Part shown: piece by piece, positions 458-28,334 of the stretch
Layout: the number at the start of each line of letters is the position of its first letter
Numbering within the stretch: the first letter of the stretch is position 1
From: Candidatus Saccharimonadota bacterium
Lineage (GTDB): Bacteria; Patescibacteriota; Gracilibacteria; BD1-5; UBA6164
Length of the DNA: 32,000 nucleotides
Assembly: GCA_004563595.2 (NCBI GenBank)
Contig: CP042461.1
Coordinates: 60,001 to 92,000 of the forward strand
Direction: 5' to 3'
Program-made: the position numbers and the translations under genes
The notes under the pieces: model-generated
Seen by the model: the letters and a program-made list of their open reading frames with translations, nothing else
Databases searched by the model: none
Told to the model about the DNA's origin: nothing

Positions 458-1810
458 TTATTTAGTTAATGAGTAATGCTTTCAAATATATGCTCATATT
501 ATTAAAAACAGTAAATAACTTGTTGCTGCTTCTTCAAATGCGTGAGTGAAATTTGCCATGAAACATAAGCTCAAAAAAGCAGTGAGGAGTCATATAGAAA
601 AATAGGTGGTTGTTTTTTGCATAATTTTATACAAAGCTATACTAATGAATATGAGTAAGCCAAGAAAGAAAAAGAGTCATAAAAAAGATTGTTCTAAAAG
701 TATCTGTACATACCAGTTTTCGGGCAAGTACTTATATACTTCTATAGAGTTTATTGAACTCTTCCATCATACATCAGTTTCAAGTGGACCAATTTGAGTT
801 GCAGGACCACTTGTTCATACTCCACTTCCAATGGGGTTATATAAAAACTTTTTTACAGCAAGAGCAAGATTATCAAATCTATTTATGAGAGATCATAAAT
901 GAAGAAAAAGGCCTCTTTTTATAAACATAATGATAGTTGCAGAAACTGCTATGAGTATAGGAACTATTTTAAGCACCTTTTTTTGCTTGCTCGTGAGCTT
1001 TCACTTAAATATGAATTTATTCAGAAAGTAAAAGAATATAAATGCTCATATCATTAATCCCAACATAGATGTTTTTGAATATGAGAAAAAGACTGATGTG
1101 ACAACAAATAATGAAGGAATGGATATAAAGATACTTCTATATATATGATTTTTTACGGTATCTAATATATATCAAATATATAAAAAGAGGAATACAATAA
1201 GGAATACGGAAAACCTTATTGGTCAACCAAAAGAAGCTTGAAATCTATGATGTCATGAAACATTTTGAGAAAAACTAATACAAGAATTTGCATTATAGGT
1301 AGATACTTTATCTGAGTATCCAAAAAAATCTGAAACAAGAGCTATGTCTCCAAAAATATACCATGGAAGAAAAATAATTAAAATGAGTCATGTTGATGCA
1401 AATACACTTTTTAAAATGGTATCAATTGAATTTCTGATGCTGATAAGAGAAAAACCTGCAATGAGGGTAAAAATAAAAAATACATCATATTTAAACCCCA
1501 GAAGGTTATTTATCCCAACAGAAAAGAATGGAAAAAATATATAGAGGAGTGACGAAAATATAAACGCAACAGAGAATCATAATATATAGTTCCCTTGAAA
1601 TATCTTTCATATTTTAAAATGGTACCTTTTTAAAATACTATATGTTCAAATGAAAAGTAAAAAAATAACTATAAACTCTTTCCAGAATCTAATAATATCA
1701 GTATTGGCTCATAATTTACACTTTAAAATTGTAACAAATAATGCATGGAGGGGTAAAAAGAATGCAAAAAGTATGAGTAAAAGCTTCATAGGAATGTTTC
1801 AGAGTTTCAT
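458..1810 (-). CDS. O-antigen ligase / Wzy_C-family polytopic membrane protein (WaaL/PglL/PilO-like)
   Basis: 450-aa ORF under table 25 (length 1353 nt, TAA stop at 458-460), invisible in the standard track. About 10 hydrophobic segments. Family-like segments: FSYSKTSMLGLMIGAFIFFYF, then the loop LYNPIGSGVGTSGPATQIG...PENWYVQILLEQSFLGLFFFLGLL, which resembles the Wzy_C signature (HN.YLQ.L.E.G..G). Confidence 0.7.
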
Positions 1811-1819
1811 AAATTATAG

Positions 1820-2938
1820 TTATTTAATTAAGTTTTTTAATCATTTTTCAAATATATCTTCAGAAAATTTTTCTGCCTGTTTTCTGCATTTTTCAGGGCT
1901 ATATACTTTGTTTCAGTTATTTATATCAAATTTGAGGAAATTTTCTATAAAATCAGATCAATCCTTTTCAGAGAAAAATTCTCATGTGATTCACTCAGAT
2001 ACTGTTTCAAGTAAGCCTCATCATCTGTATGCAAAGACTGGTTTCCCTGCAGCCATTACTTCTATGGGGACGATTCAGAAATCTTCTTCTCCAGGGAATA
2101 TGAGTCCCTTACTTGATTGAACCAGAGCAACAAGTTCATCTCAGTACTTTGCTCCTGCAAAGTCTATATTACTTATTTTTACTTTGTTTTCGAGATCCGT
2201 TTTATAATTTCCTGATCATACTACAAGGAGGTTGGTCTCAGGCATTTTATTAAATGCTTCTATTGCGATTTCTATTTTTTTGAATTCTGTGAGAGCTGAA
2301 ATTATTATATAGTAATTTTTATAATTGGTTTTTTGTTCCCTGAGAGATTGAAATCGTTTTACCTCAACGGGTGGGTATAAAATATGGGAATCTTTTCTAT
2401 AATATTTTTGAATTCTTCATGCTGTATTCTCTGAATTGGCAATAATGGTGTCTACTCGATTACTTGCTATATAATCCCATTGCCTGAGTTTTAAGAATAA
2501 TTTATTCAAAATAAATCATTTGATTCATGAATCCCATCAGATGTCTTTTTTATATTCATTAGTCCAGTCCCACATATATCTTGCAGGAGAATGATAGTAG
2601 GCAATAAATTGTGTTTCTGGCTTGGTAATCGCACCATGTGCAAATCATGATGAACTTGCTATAACAAGATCATATTTTGAGAAATCAAGACTTTCAACTG
2701 AGCTTGCCATAAAGGGAAGGCAAAACCTTTGATTTTTAAAGAGTTTATATATCTTTTGAGTTTTCAGGTCATAGACTTGTGGGTGGATACGTTCTTTGGG
2801 AAAACTCTCTCAGAGTTTCGTCTCATCATAAATCAAAGTAAATAAATCAGCCTTAGGAAAAATCTGTAGGAGTTTTTCCACTACCTTTTCAGCTCCACCA
2901 AACTTAATCAACATTTCATGTAATATAGCTATTTTCAC
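1820..2938 (-). CDS. family 4 glycosyltransferase (GT4, glycosyl transferase group 1)
   Basis: 372 aa from a GTG start at 2938 (an in-frame TAA lies upstream at 2999-3001). N-terminus (M)KIAILHEMLIKFGGAEKVV is typical of GT4. C-terminal EX7E-type region reads [36 protein letters not shown], with several of these Gly encoded by TGA. TAA stop at 1820-1822, 9 nt before the next gene. Confidence 0.85.
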
Positions 2939-3091
2939 GTCTTTTTTGGTTAAATATTTTACTTTTTTTCAAAGAAAATCTATACAATAAAGGAGATTTT
3001 ATACTTTTTCTCCTTTTAAATATAATTAATTTTTGAAAAAAATGAATTTTATGTTAAAATTTGTACAATTAAATACTAATCTGTCAAAAAA

Positions 3092-3496
3092 GTGATAAAA
3101 AAAATAGCCTTTATTTTTATACTCATAATCTGATTATTAAGTTTTGCAAATGTTTGATTTGCCAAGTGTGAATGAGATGAATGTAAAATAGATTCAATAA
3201 AATTTCAGATTGATGTAAATGACATTACTCCATGACTAGAAATAGAAGAAGGTGATAATGTTGAACAGACAATAAATAGAACGCTTTGAACTATCATACA
3301 AAAGCTTATGATTGCTCTTTGATCATTGTCATTACTTATAATGACAATATGAGGATGATATATGATAATGTATCATGGACAGGATGAGTTATTATCTAAA
3401 TGAAAATCAATATTTTTATCTTGAATTACAGCACTTGTAGTTGCCTTAAGTTCATATTATATGGTAGCATTTTTGAGATATATTTTATATTCATAA
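3092..3496 (+). CDS. VirB2/TrbC-like (T4SS-type) pilin paralog 1
   Basis: 134 aa, GTG start. (M)IKKIAFIFILIIGLLSFANVGFA signal peptide, then two hydrophobic helices separated by a short charged loop: LIMTIGGGYMIMYHGQDELLSKGKSIFLSGITALVVAL. TAA at 3494-3496. Confidence 0.7.
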
Positions 3497-3508
3497 CAGT
3501 AGAAAAAT

Positions 3509-3904
3509 ATGATTAAAAGTTTAGATAAGATTTCATATGCATTTTTATTTGCTTGTGTAAGTAGTTATGTACTCATATCAAAAGTTTTTGCTGCAGCTCC
3601 AACGGTAAATTGTATATGACTTCCTTGATGTGCTGATACGGATGTTGCTAACCCAATACCATCAGACATTAGTAAAAATATATGAACAACTTTGGTGACA
3701 AATATAATATCTCAAATGATTCAGTATGTTGCTGTAGTAGCTGTAATATCATTAATGTTAAGTTGAGTAATGTATCTTGTTTCAGGATGAGAGGAAGAAA
3801 AAACAAAAAGAGCAAAGAGCTGGATTATGTGGTCACTTGTGTGAGTATTTATGTCTATCTTTGCTTACTGAATAGTGAAAATTGTTAATAATTTCTCAAT
3901 TTAA
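3509..3904 (+). CDS. VirB2/TrbC-like pilin paralog 2
   Basis: 131 aa. MIKSLDKISYAFLFACVSSYVLISKVFAAAP signal peptide. Core reads IISQMIQYVAVVAVISLMLSGVMYLVSGGEEEKTKRAKSWIMWSLVGVFMSIFAYGIV. Track ORF 3682..3888 is out of frame with this gene. Confidence 0.75.
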
Positions 3905-3924
3905 TTTATTATTTATATACTGTT

Positions 3925-4314
3925 ATGTTAAAAACATCTTTTTATTCACTTATATGAATATTCTCAAGTACTTCTTTTGTATTTGCTGAGGCTACGAAGG
4001 ATTCCATTTTAAATGGTATTATACCAACCTGAAACAATGTGAATAAAGTTGTTGCAGATATTGATTCTACAGCAGATGGACTGACTGTACTTGATAATAT
4101 CTTTGCCTGAGCAAAAGATTCCATTTTTTGACTTATGATGATACTTTCAATAGGGGTATTTTTATTCTTATGAGTACGTCTGGTAGTAGCAAGAGGAAAT
4201 CCAGAAGAATTTAAAAAAGCTATGATGAGTATGGTATATGCTGTGGCAGGTCTTTTTGTCGTAAGTGCAGCTTGGGCAGCAGTGAAATTGGTATCTGGAC
4301 TTAATATATCTTAA
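3925..4314 (+). CDS. VirB2/TrbC-like pilin paralog 3
   Basis: 129 aa. MLKTSFYSLIGIFSSTSFVFAEA signal peptide. Core reads IFGLMMILSIGVFLFLGVRLVVARGNPEEFKKAMMSMVYAVAGLFVVSAAWAAV. The track only shows antisense ORFs here. Confidence 0.75.
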
Positions 4315-4322
4315 AAAAAAAT

Positions 4323-4733
4323 ATGAAAAATTTTTTCCTGAGTATTCTTTCAATATTAGCAATAAGTGTATCATTCTATGGATGATTATTTGCAGCTTGA
4401 TGTGATTTTGATCCAACAGCATCTTCATCAGCAAAAAAAGCATTAGAGGAATGTTTAAATGGAACAAGTGTAGTTCCCGTAGATAATGTTGATCTTGCAA
4501 CTGGATTCCAAACGGTTATTGTTTGATGGGTAAATAATATAGCTATTCTTTTAGGTATCCTTGCTGTATGATCAATAGTATTTGGATCACTTCTTTTAAC
4601 TTTGAGTACATGAGAAGATGAAAAAATCAAAAAAGCAAAAGACGTTATTAAATGGTGAATTCTAGGGTTTTTAGGAGTGGTTACAGCTTCTACTATTGTA
4701 ACTATTGTGGTTAAGATTATGTATTCTATTTAA
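4323..4733 (+). CDS. VirB2/TrbC-like pilin paralog 4
   Basis: 136 aa. MKNFFLSILSILAISVSFYGGLFAAGC may be a lipobox-like signal. Core reads IVGWVNNIAILLGILAVGSIVFGSLLLTLSTGEDEKIKKAKDVIKWGILGFLGVVTASTIV. Confidence 0.75.
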
Positions 4734-4739
4734 TAAAAT

Positions 4740-5615
4740 ATGAAAAAGACTCTTGTATTCTTGTTTTTGACATTCTCTTTTACATGTATAATTTTTGTTT
4801 TTAAGAATTATCTTCTTTTAGATGCACAAACACAAATTGAAGAACAATACTTAGATCCTACCGTTATTGTTGAACCCCAAGAAAATGATGATATGTTGAA
4901 TACTGCAAGCTGAGAGACTATAAAAGAGGTTGCATGAAAACAAGATAGAGAAAAAGAGCTGATTAAAACACATCTATTATCAGCTTCAAAAGTACACTTT
5001 TTTTATCTTCCCGTTTCCTTTCAAAAAGCATCAGAACAATATAGTTGATTATTAGGAGTGTTCTTAAATAATAGTTCTATTCAGGATAAAATTAAAAAAC
5101 TCAAAATCGAAATGCACGAAGATTTACTAGATGTAAGGTGAAAAATGAAAAATAAAACAGTAAAATTGTTTTGAGTTTTACTTATGAAAGAGGAAGAATT
5201 TATATCGGTATCAATTCATGAATTTGCTCATTATGTAGATTTGTATTTCTTAGAAAAAAAAGTTCTTACAGATATTAGTAATTATTATTACAAGATTAGT
5301 TGGGATTCCACTAAAGTATTGAAGCCGGGTCAAAAACAAGCAGATTTTGTTTCAGGATATGCTATGACAAATAAATATGAGGACTTTGCAGAAAGCTTTA
5401 CGTATTATATATTACATAATAAAGATTTTTTCATAAAATCAGAAAAATCTTCTATCTTAAAAGAGAAGTATATTTTTTTCTGACGTTATATTTTTAGAAA
5501 TAAAGAATTTATATCGACTGATTTTTCGGCATGAGTTGACTTAAAGAGTTATTATCGGGATATCACAAAAATTGAAATAAATTTGAAAAAATTATTGCAA
5601 TTTTTAAAAAAATAA
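4740..5615 (+). CDS. membrane-anchored zincin-like metallopeptidase (HExxH...E)
   Basis: 291 aa. N-terminal anchor MKKTLVFLFLTFSFTCIIFVF. Zinc motif SIHEFAHYVD, plus downstream YEDFAESFTYY as a possible third ligand or gluzincin-like glutamate. In frame with track ORF 5184..5483. Starts 7 nt after pilin 4. Confidence 0.7.
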
Positions 5616-9232: not shown

Positions 9233-9928
9233 ATGAGAGTACTATTAAAAATATCATGAGAAGCACTTGCCTGATGAGAAGGCTCAGGCTTAGATTATGT
9301 TACGTTAAATGAAGTATGAGATATGATAAAAGATCTTGTAAGAAATAATATAGAAGTATGAATAGTTGTATGAGCTGGGAATTTTATTAGGTGAGCAGAG
9401 ATAGAAAAAATTAATATAGACAGATGTAATGCAGACAATATGTGAATGCTTGCTATTAATATTAACTCTATTGCACTTTGAGATGTACTTTCTAGAAAAG
9501 GAGTTCATACAAAAATTATGAATTCATTTTGAATTGATGGTATAGTAGAAAGGTTTAATAAGCCTAAAGCCATCAAAGATATAAAAGCATGAAAAGTTAT
9601 TATATTTGGGTGAGGAACATGAAATCCCTATTTTACAACGGATACGGCTTGAGTATTAAGAGCATTAGAAATAGAGGCAGATCTTATGATTAAGGCTACA
9701 AAAGTAGAATGAGTTTTTGATAAAGACCCTATGAAATTTGCAGATGCAGAGTTGATAAAAGATGCAAGCTATGATGAAGTTATAATTAAAAATCTAAGAG
9801 TGATGGATTACACAGCAATTGCTCTTGCAAAAGAAAATAGCTTAAAGCTAAGGGTTGTGAGCCTCTATCATGAAGGAGCAATCATGAGAGCTATTTTATG
9901 AAAAGACGAATGAACATTAATTAGTTAA
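9233..9928 (+). CDS. pyrH: UMP kinase
   Basis: 231 aa. MRVLLKISGEALAG (Gly at 9257-9259 is TGA), [34 protein letters not shown] and KATKVEGVFDKDP are PyrH signatures. Confidence 0.93.
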
Positions 9929-10027: not shown

Positions 10028-10270
10028 ATGTTAGGAAAATTAAAGAAAAGAAAAAGACTAAGAGTTCATGGATTCATGAAAAGAAGCTCAACTGTATGAG
10101 GGAGAAATGTCTTAAAAAATAGAAGAAGGAAAGGAAGACATATATTAGCAGTAAGTTACCCAAAAAGATACCAAGAAATTAATGGGAAAGCTAAAATGCA
10201 TATTATTGCTTGAGGTACAGCAAAAAAATCACCTTTTGATGGAAAAGGAAACTATGTTAAAAGAAAATAA
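10028..10270 (+). CDS. rpmH: ribosomal protein L34 with C-terminal extension
   Basis: 80 aa. The [37 protein letters not shown] core matches L34. About 37 extra residues follow (YPKRYQEINGKAKMHIIAGGTAKKSPFDGKGNYVKRK) before the TAA at 10268-10270. Confidence 0.85.
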
Positions 10271-11904: not shown

Positions 11905-12585
11905 ATGTCAGCAAGAAAAATATTCATTTCGTTTATATTGTTAACTATGGTAACACCTACTTTTGCATATGAAGCAGTAGAATGTTCTAGTGATGCTGTA
12001 TATGCAGCAAACTCTTGTGGTCAATGTTTTGACGGAGGTAGTAAAGGTCAATGAGAATACGTATGATTATTAAGTGATGATTGGATTAATAATACTGAAA
12101 CAAAAAAATTATTATTCAAAGAACAACAAGAGTTTCCTCAAATGGTAAACTTAGCTTCAGATTCAGTAACTTGGTCTCAAGATCCATCAAATGAAGATTT
12201 CTGGGAATATACTCCAGAGTTTAATAACTTATTTTCAGCTGATGAAGGAGGTTATATCTTAGACGCTGGTCAAACAGTAACTTGGTTAAGATCAAAAGTA
12301 TGATATGCTTATAAAATAGATAAAAATACGGTTCCATTAGATGGAAATGTAGGTCTCCTTGTATTCCCAATTACTGTTCATTCAATTGGTGACGATGGTG
12401 ATATTGCAATAGATGATGAAGAATTAAATGAATGTGTTCTTTATAAATCAGGTGAACCTGGAGAAGTTACTACTTCACCAGAACCAAAAAAACTACCAGA
12501 CACAGGTCCAGCAGAGTTTATGCTACTTGCATTACTTGCAATGATCCTAGGACTTGGAATACTCAAAGTAAGAGCGAACTCTTAA
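11905..12585 (+). CDS. LPXTG-anchored surface protein (sortase substrate)
   Basis: 226 aa. Signal peptide MSARKIFISFILLTMVTPTFA/YEA. C-terminal sorting signal LPDTG (12493-12507), then hydrophobic PAEFMLLALLAMILGLGIL and the basic tail KVRANS. Confidence 0.8.
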
Positions 12586-12734: not shown

Positions 12735-15700
12735 ATGTTATTAAAAATATTTTTTAAACATATACGTATGTTATATATAGTAAAACAATATAAAGCTTTA
12801 TTAGGAGCACTATTAAGAAATAGACTTATAGGTGAGGATGGAGGATCATTTATACATGACTTAGATAATTTTCTTGATACTGATTCAAAAGAACCGAAAG
12901 ATTTTGCATCATTACAAAAAAAAGCTAAAACTCCTGAACAAAAAAAAGCGATTAATACTGCCCAAAAAAAAGTTGCTGAAGTGAGTAACACAAATAAAGA
13001 AGCAGTAGAGAAAGTTACAACAGAAGTAAAAGGTCAGAAAGCAAAATTGGACAAAGAAGTGACTCCATCTGCTTTTACGAACCTTGATCTTGCTACTGCT
13101 CAACAAACATTACAATATCTTAACGCTTTATCAAATACATCATTAAAAAATGGAGACGGGTGAGCAAAAGTTTCTCAGTTACAATATGCATTGTTAGGTC
13201 TTTGATATAACCTGTGACAATCATGAGAATTTAATAATTGAGCTGATGGTATTTATGGTTCAAAAGTAAAAGCAGCAGTAAGGGGAGTACAAACTGAATT
13301 AGAGTTAGACGTGACAGGAAGTTTTACGAGTACTACATTTGATAAATTAAAATCAGAACTTACTCTTGTTGTTGAATCTAAAAAATCAGAAAAAACAGTT
13401 GCTACTCAAAGTGAAGGTTCAGCTTATAAGGATCAACCTGAAGTTGTAAGCGCTCTCTCAGAGGCTGATATAGCTGCACATGAGGCTGAAATTGCAAAAC
13501 AAAGAGAGGCACTTATGAATGAAATTAATTCAGATCAGACTCAAGAGGTAAATACAGAACTTTATATCCCATATTCTAGGCCTACAAGGCAGAATAAAAT
13601 GTGAAAATGACTTGATTTAGCTGATAGAAATAGAGAAAAAGAAGTCACTTGAATTAAGAGAACAGAGCTTTTAGATCGTATGAATGTAGCATTACTACAT
13701 GATTTATTAAGAAGTGAAAATCTTGAAGAAATTTATAATGACGCATTTTCAAAAGTATCCATAAAAGAAATTACTGATGATGATGGAGTAATAACAAAAG
13801 TAGCAGAATATAATGGGATTTGAAAATTATCGAATTTTTCTGAAACTGCTAAGGTTTTAAAATCTGCATGATATGATGATGCTAAAGGGTTTTGGTGATT
13901 AGATGGTGAAGAAATGTGAGCACTTATGTTAACTATAAGAGATCAGATTAGGACTCAAAAAAATATTCCAACTATGTCTGCTGTAGGAAAAATGAAAATT
14001 CTTTTTGATTTTGATGGAGATACACATTTGGAAAGTGACTCAAAAGAAATTGATGGAATGAATTATGTATCAGAAAAACAAATTACACGTGATACTTTTA
14101 AATGAATCACATCAAATGGATACAATATATTGTTAGAAAACCTTGGTCTTCCAAATATTGAGACTGAAATGGCTCAAAACTTGTTTACTGCAAGAGAAAA
14201 ATTCCATAGAGAACTTGGTACTATGTTTGAAAGAGGATATAAATTAGGTGAACTACTTGTTGAAGGATGAGTACAACGTGCGACTGAAATGATGTATGGG
14301 AAAGAGAATGAAAAAGCGGAAGCGATTTCTAAAATTGTAGAAGAAAAGTTAATTCCTAGATTAGAGGCAGAAGCAGGGCAAGAATTAACTCCAGAAGAAA
14401 GAAAGCAAATAAAATTATTGGCTATTGGTGTTATGACATGAGGAGTGACATGAGTAGGCGCATCTTTTGATATCAAAGACTATGTAAAAGTAGTAGATAG
14501 TCTTCAAGTCGGACTCTTTAATGGTGTTCCATGAGTTGGTATATCAAAAAAGCTATGGGAAAAAAATGGTTTTGAGTTTACAGGATCAGTAGTAAATTTT
14601 TATATCCCAGTATTAACAGCTCAATATCACGATGAACCTTCATTAGAAAAAGTAAAACAAACATTTGAAGAAGAATTTGAAGGTGATTGGACTATCTCAC
14701 CGTCTATTTCTATAACAGTAGGGGCTTACCTTCCTTCAATAGCGTTTACTTATGAGAATAAAGATACATCAAAAGGTATTGATAAAAGAGTAGATAACAT
14801 GTGAGATGTATTAGATAAAATGTTTAAAGATATACAAGAATGAAAATCTTTTGATGATATCTCATATATTGAATCTAAATGAAAAGAAGAAAATAGTATT
14901 TATAATAAGATGAAAGATACATATGATACATATGGAGCATCTTTAACAGAAGAACAACAAGTGTTATTCATGAGAGACTTAAAACAAGGAGGTTTGAATT
15001 ATTATAAAATGGGTTTATATAATAATGCTTCAAAATCTAATTTTGATATCAACGCTTTCTGAATCTGAAGATGATTAGGAGATTTTAATCCACTTACATT
15101 TATTTATGTTGGTTGAGAAAATTTAAGTTTAGATTGGAAAAAAGTTATTCACTCAATTGATAGAGAAAGAGAAGTAACTACTACTCGTATTGCTTTGGAA
15201 AAAATCTGAGCAGAAGTAGTTGAATACAAAGGATTTAAAGTACTTGCTATACCAAATGGTTCAGAATATGCCATTTCATCGGATGAAAATATTATCCAAG
15301 CAGAGTACGATAAAGGAAACGATATGTTATATATCACGGGTGATATTAGAAACATTTCAGTTGCAGAGTATTCTATGGCACATTGAGCTCAAAAAACTAT
15401 TGTAGTTTGAAAATGAGTTACCAATGAAAAAGGAATGCTTCTTGATACAACTGAAAACTTAGTATCTATTGATTCAAATTTATGATTCAATATTGATTAT
15501 AGTGCAGAATCTTTAGAAAAAACTGAAATTGCAAGAGATCATTTATTTACCATTATTGACTCATGAACATTGAAAGATCCAAAAACTCCAGGTATGATGG
15601 CTCTTCAAAAAGCTATCTTCAATTATAAAAGAACATGAACTCCAACAATATCTGAATCATGGGATAAATTTATAAAAGTATTTAATGATCCTGAAATGAA

Positions 15701-16634
15701 GTCATATGCATCATGAGAGAAAGAAAATGCTCTGAAAGGTTTATTGCTATATATACAAAACACAGATATTACAAATGAAGATAAAGTTCTTATTCTTCAA
15801 TCAGTTTCATCAAACTTAATGAAGAAAAAAGCATTAAAAATAAAGGGGACAAAAGTTATGATTGAATGAGGAGAATCAACCTTAATGGAATATGATACAA
15901 ATAATAATAGGTCAGATTTCTTTGATCCAATATTTGAAAGAGAGTTATCTGATATTGCGGCAGATATTAAAGGTGCGAGAACTGAATATTTGAAGGCAAA
16001 TGGAGATAAAAGAGAATATACATTTACTTCAATAGCAGAATGAGATATTGCATTTACGGGAGTATTTTCAAAAAGATGAGACTGAGAGGATAATGTAAAT
16101 GGTTTAATGCCATATACATGAGTATATAAGGTTGCTTCATTTGAATGAGGAGTTGATATGGTGCCAATTGAAGGGAAATCAATAAATATTATTGATGCTC
16201 TTCCAACAGGATATTTAGAAAATGTAAAAACAATTTTAGAAGAAATTACATGACAAAGTTTTAGATCAGATAATGTTGATGATCCTTTTGAGAAAGTAAA
16301 AATTGCATTAAAAAGTAAGGATACTCCAATTAAATTTGAATATGACCTTTTCTTTGCTAAAATGTCAGAGTGTTTGAATGATGCTGTTATTATGAAAAAC
16401 CTTAAAATGACTGTAGGTGATAATAAAGTTACTCTCTGAGCATCTTCTACAAGTGAAGTCTATACTCCAGAGTACGCTGCACAAAAGTGGGCACTTTGAT
16501 TTACTGAAAATAAAAAAGATGATGGTAATGGTGATGATGACACAAGAACTCCTCCTCCTGGAGGAAATACAACTGAATGATGAGGGTGATCTGGGAATGT
16601 CTGAGGTGGTGAAGTTGGAGGAGGAGGTTTCTAA
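12735..16634 (+). CDS. giant hypothetical protein (1299 aa) with a PG_binding_1-like peptidoglycan-binding domain and a Gly-rich C-terminus
   Basis: Single open frame under table 25, checked codon by codon over long stretches. Track fragments 12735..13163 and 13311..13604 are in frame. nt 13164-13349 encode AKVSQLQYALLGLGYNLGQSGEFNNGADGIYGSKVKAAVRGVQTELELDVTGSFTSTTFDKL, matching the PG_binding_1 pattern (LQ..L..LGY..G..DG.[FY]G..T..AV..FQ....L..TG). The protein ends ...PPPGGNTTEGGGGSGNVGGGEVGGGGF. No signal peptide or clear TM segment. The rest is unrecognised. Confidence 0.75.
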
Positions 16635-16932: not shown

Positions 16933-19821
16933 ATGAAATATATTAAAACAGCTATTATAGCAATATTCTTATTTGTGTCACCTTCCCAGGTGGCCTTTTG
17001 AGCATGATGAATAGAAATGGAAAGTTGTTCTTCAGGTGTATATAGCGCTTTTTATCCAAGTTCTTGTTCAGTATGTTGATTTGGGACTCAAAGACTTTAC
17101 GAATGAGAAGATACAGATTTCTGGGACTTTTATAATAGTACAGATTCAAATGAAGAAATATTTGCATCATCAAGTAATGCAAGTGTTACCGATTTTTGAT
17201 GATATTTAAATGATGAAAGTCTTTCATGATTATGACTGAGATCAACTTGGACACCAGTTAACTTGAGCCATAATTCAGCAGTAATATTTTTCGTAGATAA
17301 CTTAAGGCTCACATCAAGACCACCTGATGTGAATACACCAGTATGAAGAATTGATTATTTTTTGAGGTGAGCTCCAGTAGTATCAAATTGAAATTTCTCA
17401 TTTACTTGAGAAAGAGGATATCGTGAATGAACGGAAAGCTTAGTGAATTGAGAGTATGTACTTGATGCGCCTAATTTTATAGTTGACCCTGATCCAGTAA
17501 GTCAAAAAAGTATAAATACATCGGATATATTTGAACATAATGAATGTTATGTTATGTTACCAGCTTGGTGTTGAGATGGGTTAGTTACAAATTGAGAAAC
17601 ATGTGATCCACTAGATCCAGCAACAAGTGCTTGATGTAACCCACTTACCTGCCAACCATTCCCTACATTTGTACCGTTTATGGCAGTAGATATTGTCGAT
17701 GACAATGCTGACGATTTAGATGGGGTACAATGAGATGATACTCAAACTGTAAATGTTGGTTCTGGATCAACTTTTAGAGTTACATTAACAAATGCTTGAA
17801 CAGACGCTTTAGAAAATATAACTCTCCTAGATATAGTAGCTCCAGAGTGTGCATGATCTGCAACTCTGACTGGTACAACGTTTACTTGACCATCTACATG
17901 GACAAATCTTTCAGCTACCTGAGTTATTAATGGATCTTTATTACCATTAATATGAAGCCTGAGTTATAATTGTAACTTGGATAATATATCAGTAGATATC
18001 ACAAATACGATAACTGCAGCTTGATTATGAGTGAATAGTAGTCTGATTACATGAGCACTTCCTGATACAACTCTCGTTGTTGCTTGAACTGGAAGCACGA
18101 ATTTATGTTGAAATGGAATTATCGAAACACCAGAAGTATGTGATTTTGCCGATCCAACACAAACAGCTTGGGGAACAAGTGGATGTACAGCCACCTGTCA
18201 ACCAGATAATGGATGAGGATGAGGTGGAACTTGACCACAATGTAGAGCTATAGATGCATGAACATATGATAGTACGACGAATATACGTAGTGGAATAGTA
18301 TGTACTTGAAATAGTGATGTAAATTCTATTAGACTTGATTGTTGAAATGGAACAAACCTATACGGGTCTGGATCAACGGCTACATTCTCTTGTGATTATA
18401 GTGGGAATGCAAATCCAGATGAGATTAAACCAATTTGTTATGTAGCATGAAGTACTTGATTAACAAATCCTAATTCATCTTCATGGTCAACTCGTCTTGC
18501 TTGTACACCAGGAAGACCAAATGGTGGCTGAGGAGGAGGTTGAGGCTGAGGAGGTTTTTCAAAAACATGTTGAGATGGAGTGGTTCAAAGACCAAATGAT
18601 TCTTGATTCAATGAACAATGTGATACTACTCAAACTTGGTGTAGTGCTACATGTAAAGCACTTGTAACAACACAACCTTTTGGAGGAGTAGTGAAAATGT
18701 TACCAGGGAATGATTATGTTATTATTGGAGATGGAATGAATCCATATGAGGCTCATACTTTGAGTTACCCATATATTGAAAATTTATCAGAAGACCCAAA
18801 TACGGATATAGCATTTGATGAAATTTGTGTATATAATACATCAGGGTCATCACTTTCAGGAGATGGAACTCAATGTGAACCTATGGGAGTAATCTATCCA
18901 TGAGAAAAAGCATATTTTGGAAGAACTCCAGATTATAGGTGAAATACTTCTGGTATAACATCTGGTAATATAGGAGAAAATGTTTTAAGGTATTCTGTTA
19001 AAAATGATGGAACAGACTATCCGGATGCATTCTTTTCAACGGAGTTAAAAGTAAGAGTTTCAAAACCTTCTATTGCAACGGTATGAGGATGAACGAGTTT
19101 CTTAAACAATACATCTGCAGTAAAAACTCAAGATATTGCAAAATGAGAACATAAAGATGCAAATAAGAACTTTGTATGAGCATGAGTTTGAGAAAATGGC
19201 TTGAGTTATACAAAAGATGTTTCAGACACTGCCTCAGTAAATAAAATATGAGAAGAATGAAGTGTATATAATAATACACTGAATGGATCAATAAATGATC
19301 TATGATCAAATTGATGAACCCGTACAGATATAAATGACTTCGATAATTATAATGGTATAGAAAATGTTTATATCTTAAAGAATTATAACTTTAAGATCGA
19401 ATCTGACCTATTCTCAAGCATCAATTGACCAAGAACATATGTTATAGAGAATTGAAACCTTATTATTTCTTCTGATATAACTTATTCAGATAATATAGCA
19501 TTTGTTGTAAAGTGATGAAATATTATTATAGATGAAGAAGTAAGAAGTATTAAAGGAGTCTATATCTCTATTCCAAAATGATCGAGGTGATGAAAGTTTA
19601 TATGACTATGAACAACAAATAATATATTAAAAGTAGAATGATCATTGTATTGAAATATAGAGAATCTTGTAAGCAAGAGAACCTATATAAATGAAAATGC
19701 AAGCTGACAAATTAGTGTATGAACAATTGTAAGTTTTGGTTCGAGTATCTTTAGGAAACCTGCACCACTTACTTGAAAATTTATATGAGAATATTTAGAA
19801 GCTGAAAAGATAGCAAAATAA
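16933..19821 (+). CDS. large secreted Cys-rich-repeat surface protein (adhesin-like, 962 aa)
   Basis: Signal peptide MKYIKTAIIAIFLFVSPSQVAFG. Three CxDG...E.CD repeats of the myxococcal Cys-rich / DUF4215 type: WCGDGLVTNGETCDPLD, LCGNGIIETPEVCDFAD and TCGDGVVQRPNDSGFNEQCD. A DUF11/CARDB-like stretch reads QTVNVGSGSTFRVTLTNAGTDALENITLLD. Poly-Gly linkers are present. Track ORF 18691..18903 is in frame. TAA at 19819-19821. Confidence 0.8.
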
Positions 19822-25907: not shown

Positions 25908-28334
25908 ATGGCAGACAAAAAAATTGTTGACGATTATTATTCAACTGTGGCTTCTTGAGAAGGAAGTGACAGTTCTTCAGAGTGAGAAAAAAAAATAAAA
26001 ATTAAACCAAAGAGGAAAATTGTAATAAAAAAACCTACAGAGAAAGCTCCTATTTCGGATAAAGAAATAATAACTGTAGATAAATGAGAAAAAAAAGAAC
26101 TCAAAAAACCTTTTATAAAAAAGGCATATTCTTCAAAAAATGTAGTTCAAACAATGACGGTTGTTAAGAGAGAACCTATTAAAGTTGTAAGAAGATCGGA
26201 AAGAAAACCAACAGAGAATAAACCTTATGAAAAAAAGAATACTTCTTCATCTGCAGCTCCATTTAAAACTTCATGAACTTCTCAAAATACTGAAACATGA
26301 GAGAAAAAGAATGATTTTAAATGAAATAAATTTAAAAAAACTCATTTCAAGGCAGGTAAAACATGACCAAATGATAAGAAAGAAGAAGGGGATAAAAAAT
26401 CAACACTCTGAGGTGGTTATAAGAAAACAAGGTGAAGGTTTCAATACTGAAGAGAAAAAGAAGTCACTTTTACAAGATCAAATAAAATAGCAAAAAAGAA
26501 AAAAGAAGAAAAAAACATTGATGAAATTACACAAGATTTAGTTGATCGTAAGTGACAAATAGTAACTGTCTCTGATTTTTTAACTTTGAAAGAGTTTTCA
26601 GAAAAAATTTGAATCGTTTTGCCGAGACTCATGGCTGAGTTTATGAAAAATGGTATGATGGTAAATATTAATTCAAAAATTGATTTTGATTCTGCTTCTA
26701 TTGTAGCAGAATCTTTCGAGGTTATTATTGAAAGAGATAATTCAGAATGAGTAAAAGTTGAGGATATACTTGAGTGAAACTTATCTGAATTACTTTCTGA
26801 GGATGATGATTCAAAATTAAAACCACGTTCACCTGTTATAAGTATTATGTGACATGTTGATCATGGGAAGACTTCACTTTTAGATTATATTAGAGAATCT
26901 AAGGTTACAGCAGGTGAGGCTGGATGAATTACTCAAAGTATATGAGCATATCAAGTAAATCATGGAGATCATAAAATTACATTTTTAGATACTCCTTGAC
27001 ATGAAGCCTTTACAATTATGAGAGCAAGGTGAGCAAAATCTACGGATATTGCTATTTTAGTTGTAGCTGCTGATGAATGAGTAAAACCTCAAACAATAGA
27101 AAGTATTAATCATGCAAAAGAAGCAGATATTCCTGTGATAGTTGCTATTAATAAAATGGATAAAGAATGAGCAAATCCTGATCATGTAAAATGACAATTA
27201 GCAGAACATTGATTAACTCCAGAAGATTGGGGTGGAGATACTCCAATGGTACCAGTATCAGCGCATACATGATTTTGAATAGATGAACTTCTTGAAATTA
27301 TTCTTTTGGTAGCAGAAATGAAAGAGTTAAAAGCAAATCCTGATAGAGCATGAATTGCAACAGTGATTGAGGCACACCTTGATCATAAACTATGACCAGT
27401 TGCTACGGTTCTTATGAATGCATGAATACTTTCAAAATGAGATAATGTTGTATGTCATGACTCATTCTGAAAAATTAAAATACTGAAGGACTACGCTTCT
27501 AAAAATATTAAATCAGTATGACCATCTGAACCAGTGTTGATAGTTTGACTGGATAAGGTTGTAGAAGGATGAGCTATCTTACAAGTTGTTGAATCTCAAG
27601 AGTTAGCAAGAAAAAAAGCAACGGAATATAAGAGTATTATCTCAAACAGAAAAAAAGCAGGAGAATCAAGTTTAGATTTATTGATGTCAAAAATTAAAGC
27701 TTGAAATTTAAAACAATTAAAGATTGTATTAAAGGCTGATACCAATGGTGCACTTGAGGCTATTAAAGGAGCACTGACAAAATTATCAACTCCAGAAACA
27801 ACAGTATCAATTATTCATTCATGAGTGTGAACTATTACTGAAGGGGATATCTTGATGAGTGAATGAAGTCAGGCAATTCTTATCTGATTTAATGTTGGAT
27901 TACTTCCAAATGCAAAATCTCTTATCCAAAGCTCTTGAGTAGAACATCTTAATAGTAATATTATTTATCATATTACAGAGAGAATTGAGAAGATTGTAAG
28001 TTGAATGTTAGATCCAAGAGAGGTTGAAATTTCTCTTGGATATGCAAGAGTATGATGAATCTTCTTTACTGATAAAAAATTCATGGTTATTTGATTAAAA
28101 TTAAAAGAATTTAAAGATGATGGTGAATTAAATAAAATACAAAAATGAGCTAAAGTAAGAGTAATAAGAAAGAAAAAAATGATTTGAACATGAAAAATTG
28201 AATCATTAAAACAATGAATGCTAGATGTAAAAGAACTTGAATGACCAATCGAATGTTGAATTAAATTTGTATGAAATCTCAGGATAGAAGAATGAGATGA
28301 ATTAGAAATATATAAAATTGAAATACATAAATAA
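25908..28334 (+). CDS. infB: translation initiation factor IF-2
   Basis: 808 aa. SIMGHVDHGKTSLLD (Gly is the TGA at 26850-26852), EAGGITQSIGAY, DTPGHEAF (TGA at 26997-26999), RARGAKSTDIAILVVAADEGV, AINKMDK and SAHTGFGIDELL. Has a K-rich low-complexity N-terminus. Dozens of in-frame TGA codons. Confidence 0.97.

What the first reader, a model, noticed from the sequence alone, without database searches (positions are those of the whole stretch)
3092..4733. Tandem array of four paralogous VirB2/TrbC-like pilin genes with no secretion machinery in sight
Four consecutive small genes (134, 131, 129 and 136 aa; gaps of 12, 20 and 8 nt) share one architecture. Each has a signal peptide, a variable extracytoplasmic segment, a first hydrophobic helix, a short charged loop, and a second hydrophobic helix. 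The loops read GQDELLSKGK, GGEEEKTKRAK, RGNPEEFKKA and TGEDEKIKKAK. This is the topology of conjugative/T4SS pilins (TrbC/VirB2) and of the 'T4SS pilin' family I recall as common in CPR genomes. It is not that of type IV (PilA) pilins, since no G/FTLIE prepilin motif is present. The variable regions differ strongly between copies: Cys pairs in copies 1 and 2, and a Ser-rich DPTASSSAKK stretch in copy 4. That suggests diversification of an exposed surface. No VirB4, VirB6 or VirD4 gene lies within 32 kb. All four genes are invisible or antisense-masked in the standard track.
Basis: partly seen in the sequence, partly recalled or inferred. Interest (0 to 1): 0.7.

Follow-up and report, generated by a model that had tools for sequence, protein, structure and literature searches.

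The report
Four-gene pilin-like array in Gracilibacteria
Four neighbouring small genes in a tiny, recoded (TGA = glycine) candidate-phyla bacterium encode membrane 'pilin-like' proteins of a family already known to form such arrays in these bacteria; this array is unusual because it is a fixed four-subunit set with its own protease partner, in a closed genome where a published survey found no VirB4, the ATPase that normally assembles such pilins.

Summary
Under genetic code 25 the window holds four tandem + strand genes (3092-3496, 3509-3904, 3925-4314, 4323-4733). Each has a signal peptide, a variable ectodomain and a helix / Lys-rich loop / helix hairpin. Three pass Pfam's cut-off for PF18895 (T4SS_pilin). 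Copy 1 joins them by profile-profile comparison. Direct homology to classical VirB2/TrbC is not demonstrable by sequence or fold.

The window is 100% identical to the closed genome of Candidatus Gracilibacteria bacterium 28_42_T64. Tandem arrays of divergent VirB2-like pilins in Patescibacteria were described in 2023-2025, so the kind is known. In recoded lineages the T4SS genes are dispersed, so 'no machinery nearby' is normal.

New here:
- The four paralogs are ancient, with 1:1 orthologs in at least 10 other loci.
- An HExxH metallopeptidase always follows 0-10 nt downstream.
- In other lineages the same modules occur fused. A 3-module fusion sits beside VirD4/VirB4.
- A published HMM survey scores this closed genome VirB4-negative. 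My searches agree but cannot prove it.

Verdict: new member of a known kind, moderate interest.

The parts
3092..3496 (+). pil1: 134 aa, GTG start, 10 TGA = Gly codons. Signal peptide, ectodomain with CxxxxC, helix / GQDELLSKGK loop / helix.
   Evidence: Translation. PF18895 scores only 15.4 bits, below the cut-off. hhalign of its ortholog family against the copy 2-4 families gives 96.6% probability, E 5.7e-10. HMMs built without it hit at E 1.7e-7 and 2.2e-10. Positional orthologs occur in 10 other loci at 44-61% identity.
3509..3904 (+). pil2: 131 aa. Signal peptide, conserved CxGLPGC motif, helix / GGEEEKTKRAK loop / helix.
   Evidence: PF18895 31.9 bits, above the 26.6 cut-off. The CxGLPGC motif is conserved in orthologs. 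Orthologs are 43-63% identical.
3925..4314 (+). pil3: 129 aa. Signal peptide, Cys-free ectodomain, helix / RGNPEEFKKA loop / helix.
   Evidence: PF18895 36.6 bits. The ARGNPE(E/D)FKK loop is nearly invariant in orthologs. Orthologs are 38-49% identical.
4323..4733 (+). pil4: 136 aa. Signal peptide, ectodomain with invariant Cys27/Cys44 and a Ser-rich stretch, helix / TGEDEKIKKAK loop / helix.
   Evidence: PF18895 40.8 bits; NF045849 34.2 bits, below its cut-off of 40. Invariant C27 and C44. AlphaFold2 helices H58-94 and H98-135. It is the same protein as QFR38662.1, 'hypothetical protein A9Q91_00310'.
4740..5615 (+). MxPep: 291 aa HExxH zinc metallopeptidase with an N-terminal membrane anchor or signal. 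It starts 6 nt after pil4 and is the constant operon partner of the array.
   Evidence: Peptidase_Mx1 29.7 bits, above the 25.6 cut-off. Weak match to the solved 'substrate import-associated zinc metallohydrolase lipoprotein' 9urd. It lies immediately downstream of the last pilin gene in all 10 class B loci and all 3 deeper loci.
2915..3091 (.). 177 nt divergent intergenic region between the GT1 gene (-) and pil1 (+). It probably carries the promoter(s).
   Evidence: The two best sigma-70-like matches of the region (10/12) lie at 2998-3026 and 3033-3060. The scan as a whole is not above the shuffled expectation (20 found, 21.7 expected). There is no terminator-like site between 3092 and 6100. 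This is inference only.
1820..2914 (-). Group 1 glycosyltransferase, divergently transcribed. A conserved neighbour of the array; any functional link is unproven.
   Evidence: Glycos_transf_1 73.1 bits. Present upstream of the array in 8 of 10 class B loci at 57-71% identity.
458..1810 (-). 450 aa polytopic membrane protein, possibly Wzy / O-antigen-ligase-like. A conserved neighbour; any functional link is unproven.
   Evidence: No Pfam hit of its own, even at E 0.1. Its L003 ortholog carries a weak precomputed PF04932 Wzy_C hit. Present in 7 class B loci at 27-49% identity.

Best explanation
What it is. This is a five-gene operon of recoded Patescibacteria (GTDB class JAEDAM01, NCBI 'Gracilibacteria'). 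It has four ancient, non-redundant paralogs of the Patescibacteria VirB2-like 'T4SS_pilin' family (PF18895), followed by a membrane-anchored HExxH zinc metallopeptidase.

How it most likely works:
1. Each pilin-like protein is exported by Sec and its signal peptide is cleaved (inferred).
2. It then sits in the membrane as an N-out/C-out helical hairpin. The Lys-rich loop faces the cytoplasm. A variable, mostly disulfide-bonded ectodomain faces outside (inferred from sequence and the positive-inside rule).
3. The four different subunits act together as a hetero-oligomer, forming the membrane-embedded and surface-exposed part of the Patescibacteria T4SS-like host-interaction apparatus. This could be a short filament or a stalk/channel assembly. 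It is not four interchangeable antigenic variants (inferred).
4. The downstream metallopeptidase is a candidate maturation or partner enzyme (inferred from invariant adjacency only).

Assembly route. In this group the ATPase genes (VirB4, VirD4) are not linked to the array. In this particular closed genome VirB4 appears to be absent. The module probably works, at least here, without a canonical VirB4-driven pilus-assembly step. This is the least certain part.
For: Shown:
- Family membership and topology.
- Gaps of 12, 20, 8 and 6 nt, with no terminator inside the block.
- 1:1 orthologs of pil1-pil4 plus MxPep in 10 further code-25 loci. A pil2-pil3-pil4-MxPep version occurs in 3 deeper lineages.
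- Orthologs are 55-67% identical in the hairpin, paralogs about 23%, and orthologous ectodomains about 30%. This means old duplications, purifying selection on the hairpin and variable exposed parts.
- Natural head-to-tail fusions of 3-8 modules exist.
- In Gracilibacteria a signal peptide + 3-module fusion (PF18895 x3, 77 and 65 bits) lies directly beside VirD4-type T4CP and about 3 kb from VirB4. This is Rosetta-stone-type support both for subunits working together and for a T4SS connection.
- One MAG (GFS_6367) carries both the array and the T4CP locus on separate contigs.

Literature:
- Pilin arrays are essential and lie inside the T4SS locus in Southlakia (PMC10633639; PMC12857230).
- Arrays of 2-11 pilins at about 25% identity occur in 383 assemblies (PMC12102498).

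VirB4 absence:
- Table S1 of PMC12102498 lists this closed genome as 'Presence of VirB4: No'. Nine of the 11 JAEDAM01 rows I saw are 'Yes'.
- VirB4 is 65-95% conserved in recoded lineages, so it is easy to detect.
- No hit from any 28_42_T64 contig appears in two protein searches or in the metagenome scan.
Against: - No experiment or expression data exist for this organism.
- Hetero-oligomerisation is inferred, not modelled. Both AlphaFold2 models are low-confidence (pLDDT 61.5 and 56.1).
- Homology to structurally characterised VirB2/TraA pilins is not demonstrable. 'Pilin' therefore rests on the Pfam family name, on topology and on gene linkage in other lineages.
- VirB4 absence was not verified on the whole genome by me. 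My lists were capped at 120 or 80 rows. The survey also required more than 50% profile coverage, so a split or unannotated gene could be missed.
- The peptidase link is adjacency only. The same block is also syntenic with RNase J, PyrH and L34, which shows that synteny in these genomes can be conserved without any functional link.
Confidence: 0.5

Rival explanations
1. Ordinary unlinked T4SS pilins. The four proteins are major and minor subunits of a VirB4-dependent conjugative-type pilus. The ATPases and channel components are encoded elsewhere on the 1.34 Mb chromosome and were missed by the survey. Possible reasons are a frameshifted, split, unannotated or unusually divergent VirB4.
For: - T4SS genes are dispersed in recoded lineages: 0 of 80 VirB4 loci have a pilin within 3 kb. 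TrsD and VirB3 are unlinked in Gracilibacteria.
- 9 of the 11 JAEDAM01 assemblies I saw are VirB4-positive.
- VirB4 occurs on contigs as AT-rich as this genome.
- MAG GFS_6367 has both an array and a T4CP locus.
- The survey's 50% coverage filter could drop a broken gene.
- My own searches were capped.
Against: - The genome is closed and was translated with the right code at NCBI. P0014/QFR38662.1 equals my table-25 translation.
- VirB4 is so conserved (at least 65% identity across the 240 listed rows of two searches) that a normal copy would not be missed. The published table says 'No'.
- None of the listed hits comes from the 1,343,103, 493,167, 318,821 or 80,007 bp contigs.
Confidence: 0.3
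2. Antigenic or host-range variation array. The paralogs are interchangeable alternative major pilins, as proposed for Bartonella and Anaplasma VirB2 paralogs. They are kept to vary the exposed surface or to match different host strains.
For: - The N-terminal ectodomains differ strongly between copies and between species (about 30% identity).
- PMC12102498 offers this idea for Patescibacteria arrays.
Against: - Each paralog has a positional ortholog in every related genome, and the hairpin is 55-67% conserved.
- Copy number is fixed at four (three in deeper lineages), with no recent duplicates. The highest cross-paralog identity in the hairpin is 39%.
- Paralog-specific invariant motifs exist: CxGLPGC in pil2, ARGNPEEFKK in pil3, HGQDELL in pil1.
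- Fused multi-module relatives imply simultaneous rather than alternative use.
Confidence: 0.1
3. Not pilins at all. These are small bitopic or hairpin membrane proteins with an unrelated role (holin-like, bacteriocin-immunity, or a generic membrane scaffold). They match PF18895 only through hydrophobic composition.
For: - No detectable similarity to solved VirB2/TraA/TrbC.
- Weak spurious hits to other TM families accompany the Pfam matches.
- A VirB4-negative genome.
Against: - Scores exceed the curated cut-off for three copies, with full-length model coverage.
- The conserved element includes the non-hydrophobic G-x-E-E-K-x-K-K-A-K loop.
- Family members are physically linked to T4CP and VirB4 in Gracilibacteria.
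- No PHROG (holin) or PADLOC hits.
- The locus lies in core-chromosome context, conserved across at least 13 genomes.
Confidence: 0.07

Closest known systems
Patescibacteria VirB2-like pilin arrays. Examples: the Southlakia epibionticum ML1 T4SS locus SEML1_0006-0019 with six essential pilins, the TM7x 'Sec-secreted array', and 441 arrays in 383 assemblies (Wang et al. 2023, PMC10633639; Quinonero-Coronel et al. 2025, PMC12102498).
   Same: - Same Pfam family (PF18895).
- Tandem genes with very low mutual identity: about 25% in the literature, 16-23% here.
- Signal peptide plus helical hairpin.
- Monoderm CPR host.
- Position near the origin-proximal rpmH/rnpA neighbourhood that often hosts T4SS genes.
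   Different: - Here the array is not inside or near a T4SS cluster.
- It is a fixed set of four orthologous paralogs.
- It always carries an HExxH metallopeptidase.
- It sits in a closed genome scored VirB4-negative. The survey counted pilins only in VirB4-positive assemblies.
Classical conjugative/T4SS pilins: VirB2 (Ti plasmid), TrbC (RP4), TraA (F); Pfam PF04956.
   Same: - Signal peptide followed by two hydrophobic helices around a short basic loop.
- N-out/C-out topology.
- Small size.
- hhalign aligns helix 1, loop and helix 2 in register.
   Different: - No PF04956 hit. hhalign gives only 31% and 10% probability.
- The loop is about 7 residues longer and strongly charged.
- There is a 35-45 aa ectodomain with disulfides.
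- No adjacent VirB1/VirB3/VirB4.
- The host is a monoderm.
Mycoplasma ICE 'Mbov_0395 family pilin-like conjugal transfer protein' (NCBIfam NF045849).
   Same: It is the best NCBIfam match for copies 2-4, covering the whole 80-residue model. It comes from a monoderm MPF-FATA-type context, the T4SS class that the Patescibacteria system derives from.
   Different: Scores of 22-34 bits are below the 40-bit cut-off. The window's genes are chromosomal core genes, not part of an ICE.
VirB2 paralog arrays of Bartonella and Anaplasma.
   Same: Several tandem VirB2-type genes in a host-dependent bacterium.
   Different: Those are thought to be alternative variants for immune evasion. Here the paralogs are ancient, individually conserved and probably used together.
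Type IV (PilA-type) pilins and T2SS pseudopilins. These are abundant in this genome according to Sieber et al. 2019 (PMC6851277).
   Same: Small secreted filament subunits encoded in multiple copies.
   Different: - No class III G/FTLIE prepilin signal.
- Two C-terminal TM helices instead of one N-terminal helix.
- A different family.

Membership tests
PF18895 T4SS_pilin (Patescibacteria VirB2-like pilins) | Profile HMM score at or above Pfam's gathering cut-off (26.6 bits) | tested here: met
   Copies 2, 3 and 4 score 31.9, 36.6 and 40.8 bits over nearly the full model. Copy 1 scores 15.4 bits, below the cut-off, but is linked by hhalign at 96.6% probability, E 5.7e-10, and by independent HMMs at E 2e-7 to 2e-10.
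PF18895 T4SS_pilin (Patescibacteria VirB2-like pilins) | Signal peptide plus helix / short charged loop / helix hairpin | tested here: met
   Hydropathy segments in all four. AlphaFold2 secondary structure for copy 4. No dedicated signal-peptide predictor was available.
PF18895 T4SS_pilin (Patescibacteria VirB2-like pilins) | Occurrence as tandem arrays of highly divergent copies | tested here: met
   Four genes at 16-23% identity. The literature describes arrays of 2-11 genes with a mean of 25% identity.
PF18895 T4SS_pilin (Patescibacteria VirB2-like pilins) | Genomic linkage to T4SS genes (virB4 within about 20 CDS). True for about 58% of assemblies in the survey, so typical but not obligatory. 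| tested here: not met
   No ATPase or other T4SS gene in the 32 kb window plus 9 kb of flank. Linkage does exist for the 3-module fused relatives in Gracilibacteria.
TrbC/VirB2 conjugative pilins (PF04956) | Sequence or profile homology to bona fide VirB2/TrbC | tested here: inconclusive
   No PF04956 hit at E <= 1. hhalign against six annotated VirB2/TrbC proteins gives 30.6% (E 5e-4) and 10.3% probability. Only 'faint' precomputed PF04956 hits occur on fused relatives.
TrbC/VirB2 conjugative pilins (PF04956) | Fold match to solved T4SS pilins | tested here: inconclusive
   The model has pLDDT 61.5. Foldseek against PDB gives nothing at E <= 1e-3 and no pilin among its 26 weak hits. PDB profile searches are negative.
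TrbC/VirB2 conjugative pilins (PF04956) | A VirB4 ATPase in the same genome to assemble the pilus | tested here: inconclusive
   A published HMM survey scores this closed genome 'No'. My two VirB4 searches and one metagenome scan found no copy from this genome, but the lists were capped. The whole genome was not available to me.
TrbC/VirB2 conjugative pilins (PF04956) | Polymerisation into an extracellular pilus; N/C-terminal processing or cyclisation | not testable with these tools
   Needs microscopy and mass spectrometry.
Type IV pilins / pseudopilins (PilA, GspG) | Class III signal peptide (G/FTLIE motif) and a single N-terminal hydrophobic helix | tested here: not met
   The motif is not present in any of the four sequences. 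The hydrophobic helices are C-terminal and paired.
Mbov_0395 pilin-like conjugal transfer protein (NF045849) | NCBIfam equivalog cut-off of 40 bits | tested here: not met
   22.0, 22.8 and 34.2 bits for copies 2-4; no hit for copy 1.
Holins / bacteriocin-immunity / defence peptides | Match to phage or defence protein families, or a mobile-element context | tested here: not met
   No PHROGs or PADLOC hits. No plasmid match by tblastn. The context is core chromosome: RNase J, PyrH, L34, YidC.

The most novel reading that the evidence does not exclude
The pil1-pil4 + metallopeptidase operon is a self-contained envelope module that works independently of VirB4. In a closed genome that has lost the T4SS ATPase, four PF18895 hairpin proteins are still maintained. 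They assemble into a surface filament or membrane channel by another route: Sec/YidC insertion plus proteolytic maturation by the dedicated HExxH peptidase, and perhaps glycosylation by the divergent GT/Wzy-like pair. If so, many 'T4SS pilin' arrays in Patescibacteria are not T4SS parts in the mechanistic sense.
Probability: 0.2. Interest if true: 0.7.

Novelty: new member of a known kind. Interest (0 to 1): 0.4.

Why it matters
VirB2-like pilin arrays are among the few gene sets shown to be essential for the epibiotic life of Patescibacteria, and nobody knows what they build.

This locus adds three constraints:
- The paralogs are ancient and individually conserved. That favours a heteromeric assembly over antigenic variation.
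- Natural fusions, and a 3-module fusion beside VirD4/VirB4, support joint action in the membrane and a real T4SS connection.
- A closed, VirB4-negative genome that still keeps an intact array with a dedicated metallopeptidase is a natural test case for whether these proteins need a T4SS ATPase at all.

It is also a practical reminder that these genes vanish under standard-code annotation. They remain 'hypothetical protein' in GenBank.

Tried and rejected
1. Fold-level proof of VirB2 similarity. AlphaFold2 of copy 4 (pLDDT 61.5) followed by Foldseek against PDB gave only generic helical hairpins at E > 4. Uninformative.
2. AlphaFold2 of a natural 4-module fusion (P0049), used as a proxy for hetero-oligomer packing. 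pLDDT 56 and pTM 0.34; only the secondary structure is usable.
3. PDB profile searches with two family alignments. No pilin hit.
4. tblastn of copy 4 against 72,556 plasmids. No match.
5. Viral-contig scan with a fused pilin. Nothing.
6. A broad module alignment (A6) was too divergent for the locus scanner.
7. Direct proof of VirB4 absence. I could not read the whole genome. Table S3 of the survey is truncated in the held copy. The supplements of the genome paper contain no T4SS terms, but may not be a full annotation table. Two VirB4 protein searches and one metagenome scan were negative for this genome, but their lists were capped.
8. The promoter scan is not above chance in this AT-rich DNA.
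9. Rfam finds nothing in the window.
10. The holin / immunity / defence idea is rejected.
11. The type IV pilin idea is rejected: no prepilin motif.
12. I considered the 881 aa and 4161 aa upstream proteins as divergent ATPases. Rejected: both are secreted surface proteins without a Walker A motif.
Full report
**1. The observation**

The window is recoded. With table 11 only four ORFs of at least 100 aa exist in 32 kb; with TGA read as sense there are 39. TGA falls on universally conserved glycines: IF2 GHVDHGKT and DTPGHEAF, and PyrH GGGTGNPYFTTD. The code is therefore 25 (TGA = Gly), not 4.

- pil1, 3092-3496, GTG start, 134 aa
- pil2, 3509-3904, 131 aa
- pil3, 3925-4314, 129 aa
- pil4, 4323-4733, 136 aa

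The gaps are 12, 20 and 8 nt, and the loop sequences are as quoted. Under table 11 only 30-68 aa fragments and antisense ORFs appear. Hydropathy shows a signal-like N-terminal segment and two C-terminal hydrophobic helices in each. Mutual identity is 16-23%. A family HMM finds exactly these four in the window plus 9 kb of extra upstream flank.

**2. Source and context**

The window is identical (14,733 nt overlap, 0 mismatches) to public contigs. Its proteins are QFR38660.1 and QFR38662.1, annotated 'hypothetical protein A9Q91_00300/00310', of Candidatus Gracilibacteria bacterium 28_42_T64. That genome is closed and 1,343,103 bp long (Sieber et al. 2019, PMC6851277). The genome paper discusses type II secretion and type IV pilus genes but does not mention these proteins.

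The neighbours are core chromosome:
- Upstream, divergently transcribed: a polytopic membrane protein and a GT1 glycosyltransferase.
- Downstream: an HExxH metallopeptidase only 6 nt after pil4, then RNase J, a lipoprotein, PyrH, L34, RnpA and YidC.
- Further on: large secreted proteins, TrmD, trigger factor, IF2, IF1, S13/S11/S4 and RpoA.

There is no ATPase of any T4SS type in the window or in the extra upstream flank, which holds 4161 aa and 881 aa secreted proteins.

**3. Family**

- Pfam PF18895 (T4SS_pilin) scores 31.9, 36.6 and 40.8 bits for pil2-4 against a cut-off of 26.6. pil1 scores 15.4 bits.
- pil1 belongs to the same superfamily. Its ortholog alignment matches the pil2-4 alignment by hhalign at 96.6% probability, E 5.7e-10, across the hairpin.
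- The best NCBIfam match is the Mycoplasma ICE 'Mbov_0395 pilin-like conjugal transfer protein', below its cut-off.
- There is no PF04956 (TrbC/VirB2) hit.
- I fetched six annotated VirB2/TrbC proteins from plasmids and compared profiles. The alignment is topologically in register, but the probability is only 31% and 10%.
- PDB profile searches and Foldseek with a low-confidence model give no pilin.
- PHROGs and PADLOC are negative, and no sequence has a type IV prepilin motif.

Membership in PF18895 is therefore established. Homology to classical VirB2 remains a plausible but untested inference.

An exhaustive HMM search shows the family is very large: 13,012 representative clusters at E <= 1e-3.

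**4. What is already known**

- Wang et al. 2023 (PMC10633639) found a series of essential predicted pilins inside the T4SS cluster of Southlakia.
- Quinonero-Coronel et al. 2025 (PMC12102498) used PF18895 and other profiles on 3,035 genomes.
  - They report 441 arrays of 2-11 pilin genes in 383 assemblies, with a mean identity of 25%.
  - Pilins lie near virB4 in only 1,135 of 1,948 assemblies.
  - T4SS components are largely unlinked in Gracilibacteria.
  - T4SS genes often lie near dnaA/rpmH/rnpA.
- A 2025 review calls these pilin arrays a unique feature of a monoderm T4SS (PMC12857230).

The kind of object is therefore known.

**5. What the comparative data add**

Orthologs of pil4 in other organisms show the same block. 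A scan of species-representative genomes gave 33 loci. I analysed them with the appropriate genetic code and mapped gene order by BLASTP.

*Class B, the window's type.*
- The order is (Wzy-like, GT1) | pil1-pil2-pil3-pil4-MxPep | RNase J...
- It recurs in 10 further code-25 loci (L003, L005, L006, L012-L018; GC 19-35%).
- Each paralog has its own positional ortholog.
- Three deeper lineages (L019, L024, L026) have pil2-pil3-pil4-MxPep-RNase J.
- In the C-terminal hairpin, orthologs are 55-67% identical and paralogs about 23%. The N-terminal ectodomains of orthologs are only about 30% identical.
- Paralog-specific motifs are conserved: CxGLPGC in pil2, ARGNPEEFKK in pil3, HGQDELL in pil1, and Cys27/Cys44 in pil4.

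This is the signature of old duplication and subfunctionalisation with exposed variable parts. It is not the signature of a recently diversifying variant set.

*Class A.*
- In Gracilibacteria proper (L030-L037, L044) a VirD4-type coupling protein lies directly beside a 312-423 aa protein.
  - The coupling protein carries T4SS-DNA_transf, TrwB_AAD_bind and TraG-D_C domains.
  - The neighbouring protein is a signal peptide plus three PF18895 modules (77 and 65 bits, 3 stretches).
- A VirB4 (P-loop_TraG, AAA_10, DUF87) lies about 3 kb further on.
- L019 (array) and L034 (T4CP locus) come from the same MAG.

*Fusions elsewhere.* Other CPR lineages carry natural fusions of up to eight modules in one ORF.

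These fusions suggest that the separate gene products of an array act together in the membrane. They also tie the family physically to T4SS ATPases.

**6. Is the machinery really missing?**

Locally, yes, but that is normal. None of 80 VirB4 loci from recoded lineages has a pilin within 3 kb.

Genome-wide, the evidence is as follows:
- Table S1 of the 2025 survey lists this closed genome (GCA_004563595.2, class JAEDAM01) as 'Presence of VirB4: No'.
- Nine of the 11 JAEDAM01 rows I could read are 'Yes'. Recoding therefore did not blind the survey.
- The other 'No' is a genome of similar size, GCA_013350285.1.
- VirB4 is remarkably conserved in these lineages, at 65-95% identity over the listed rows of two searches.
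- VirB4 occurs on contigs as AT-rich as 22% GC.
- No listed hit comes from any contig of the 28_42_T64 assemblies. The metagenome scan returned no contig from the JGI sample that holds this genome.

All of this is consistent with true absence. My lists were capped and I could not scan the chromosome itself, so I put true absence at about 0.7.

**7. Mechanism**

*Shown:* family membership, topology, operon-like spacing, deep 1:1 orthology, invariant peptidase adjacency, fusions, and linkage of fused relatives to T4CP and VirB4.

*Inferred:*
- Sec export and signal cleavage.
- N-out/C-out insertion with the Lys-rich loop in the cytoplasm.
- Hetero-oligomeric assembly as the membrane and surface part of the T4SS-like host-interaction apparatus.
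- A maturation or partner role for the metallopeptidase.
- In this genome, function without VirB4.

*Rivals:*
- An ordinary unlinked T4SS pilus with a missed VirB4 (0.3).
- An antigenic-variation array (0.1).
- Unrelated small membrane proteins (0.07).

**8. Verdict**

The object is a new member of an already described kind.

The added value lies in three things: the fixed four-paralog + metallopeptidase operon, the fusion evidence, and the VirB4-negative closed genome. That genome makes this a good test case for whether 'T4SS pilins' of Patescibacteria need a T4SS ATPase.

Noticed in passing
whole window (e.g. 9233-9928 PyrH, 25908-28334 IF2): The genome uses genetic code 25. TGA encodes most glycines: 17 TGA against 8 GGN codons in PyrH, and 51 against 20 in IF2. 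Public metagenome gene calls (JGI, Logan, ENA) translated it with code 4, giving Trp-rich proteins and weakened Pfam hits.
   Followed up: yes
P0020 (L009 9925-12387), P0025 (L011 1777-3435), P0049 (L007 7275-8438), L038 9983-15583: In standard-code CPR lineages, single ORFs contain 3-8 head-to-tail PF18895 hairpin modules, and only the first has a signal peptide. L038 has an 1866 aa ORF with a pilin module. I found no mention of such fusions in the papers I read.
   Followed up: partly
L044 6350-15519; also L030-L037: The Gracilibacteria T4SS neighbourhood is VirD4-like T4CP (809-993 aa), then a signal peptide + triple PF18895 module protein (312-423 aa), then RadA, then VirB4 (about 650 aa). 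L037 has two T4CP paralogs flanking the triple-pilin gene. The survey reports no VirB6 in Gracilibacteria, so the 6-TM triple pilin is a candidate functional substitute. This is speculation.
   Followed up: partly
window 458-2914 (-); L009 17336-18493; L011 8032-9174: A Wzy_C-like polytopic protein and/or a glycosyltransferase recur next to pilin arrays in unrelated CPR lineages. Pilin O-oligosaccharyltransferases (PglL, PilO) are Wzy_C-family enzymes (my own knowledge), and pil4 has a Ser-rich ectodomain stretch. Pilin glycosylation is therefore worth testing. The window's 450 aa protein itself has no Pfam hit.
   Followed up: partly
window 10028-10270: The ribosomal protein L34 ORF is 80 aa, roughly twice the usual length (about 45 aa, from my own knowledge). 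The extension is conserved in relatives: 81 aa at 88% identity in L003 and L016.
   Followed up: no
window 11905-12585, 12735-16634, 16933-19821; L001/L002 1-6070: There is a cluster of large envelope proteins near the array:
- a 226 aa protein with a C-terminal LPDTG + TM sortase-type signal;
- a 1299 aa protein with a PG_binding_1 domain and a Gly-rich tail;
- a 962 aa Cys/Gly-rich secreted protein;
- upstream, 881 aa and 4161 aa secreted proteins.
The first two are syntenic in relatives (L003, L016).
   Followed up: no
PMC12102498 Table S1: Among the JAEDAM01 rows visible, only two assemblies are VirB4-negative. They have similar sizes: 28_42_T64 at 1,343,103 bp and GCA_013350285.1 at 1,281,964 bp. 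This may be a small VirB4-less sublineage.
   Followed up: no
L051-L130; P0169-P0330: VirB4 of recoded Patescibacteria is unusually conserved, at 65-95% identity across GC contents of 22-53%. The pilin-like proteins of the same organisms diverge to 20-30%. This is a striking rate contrast within one putative system.
   Followed up: partly
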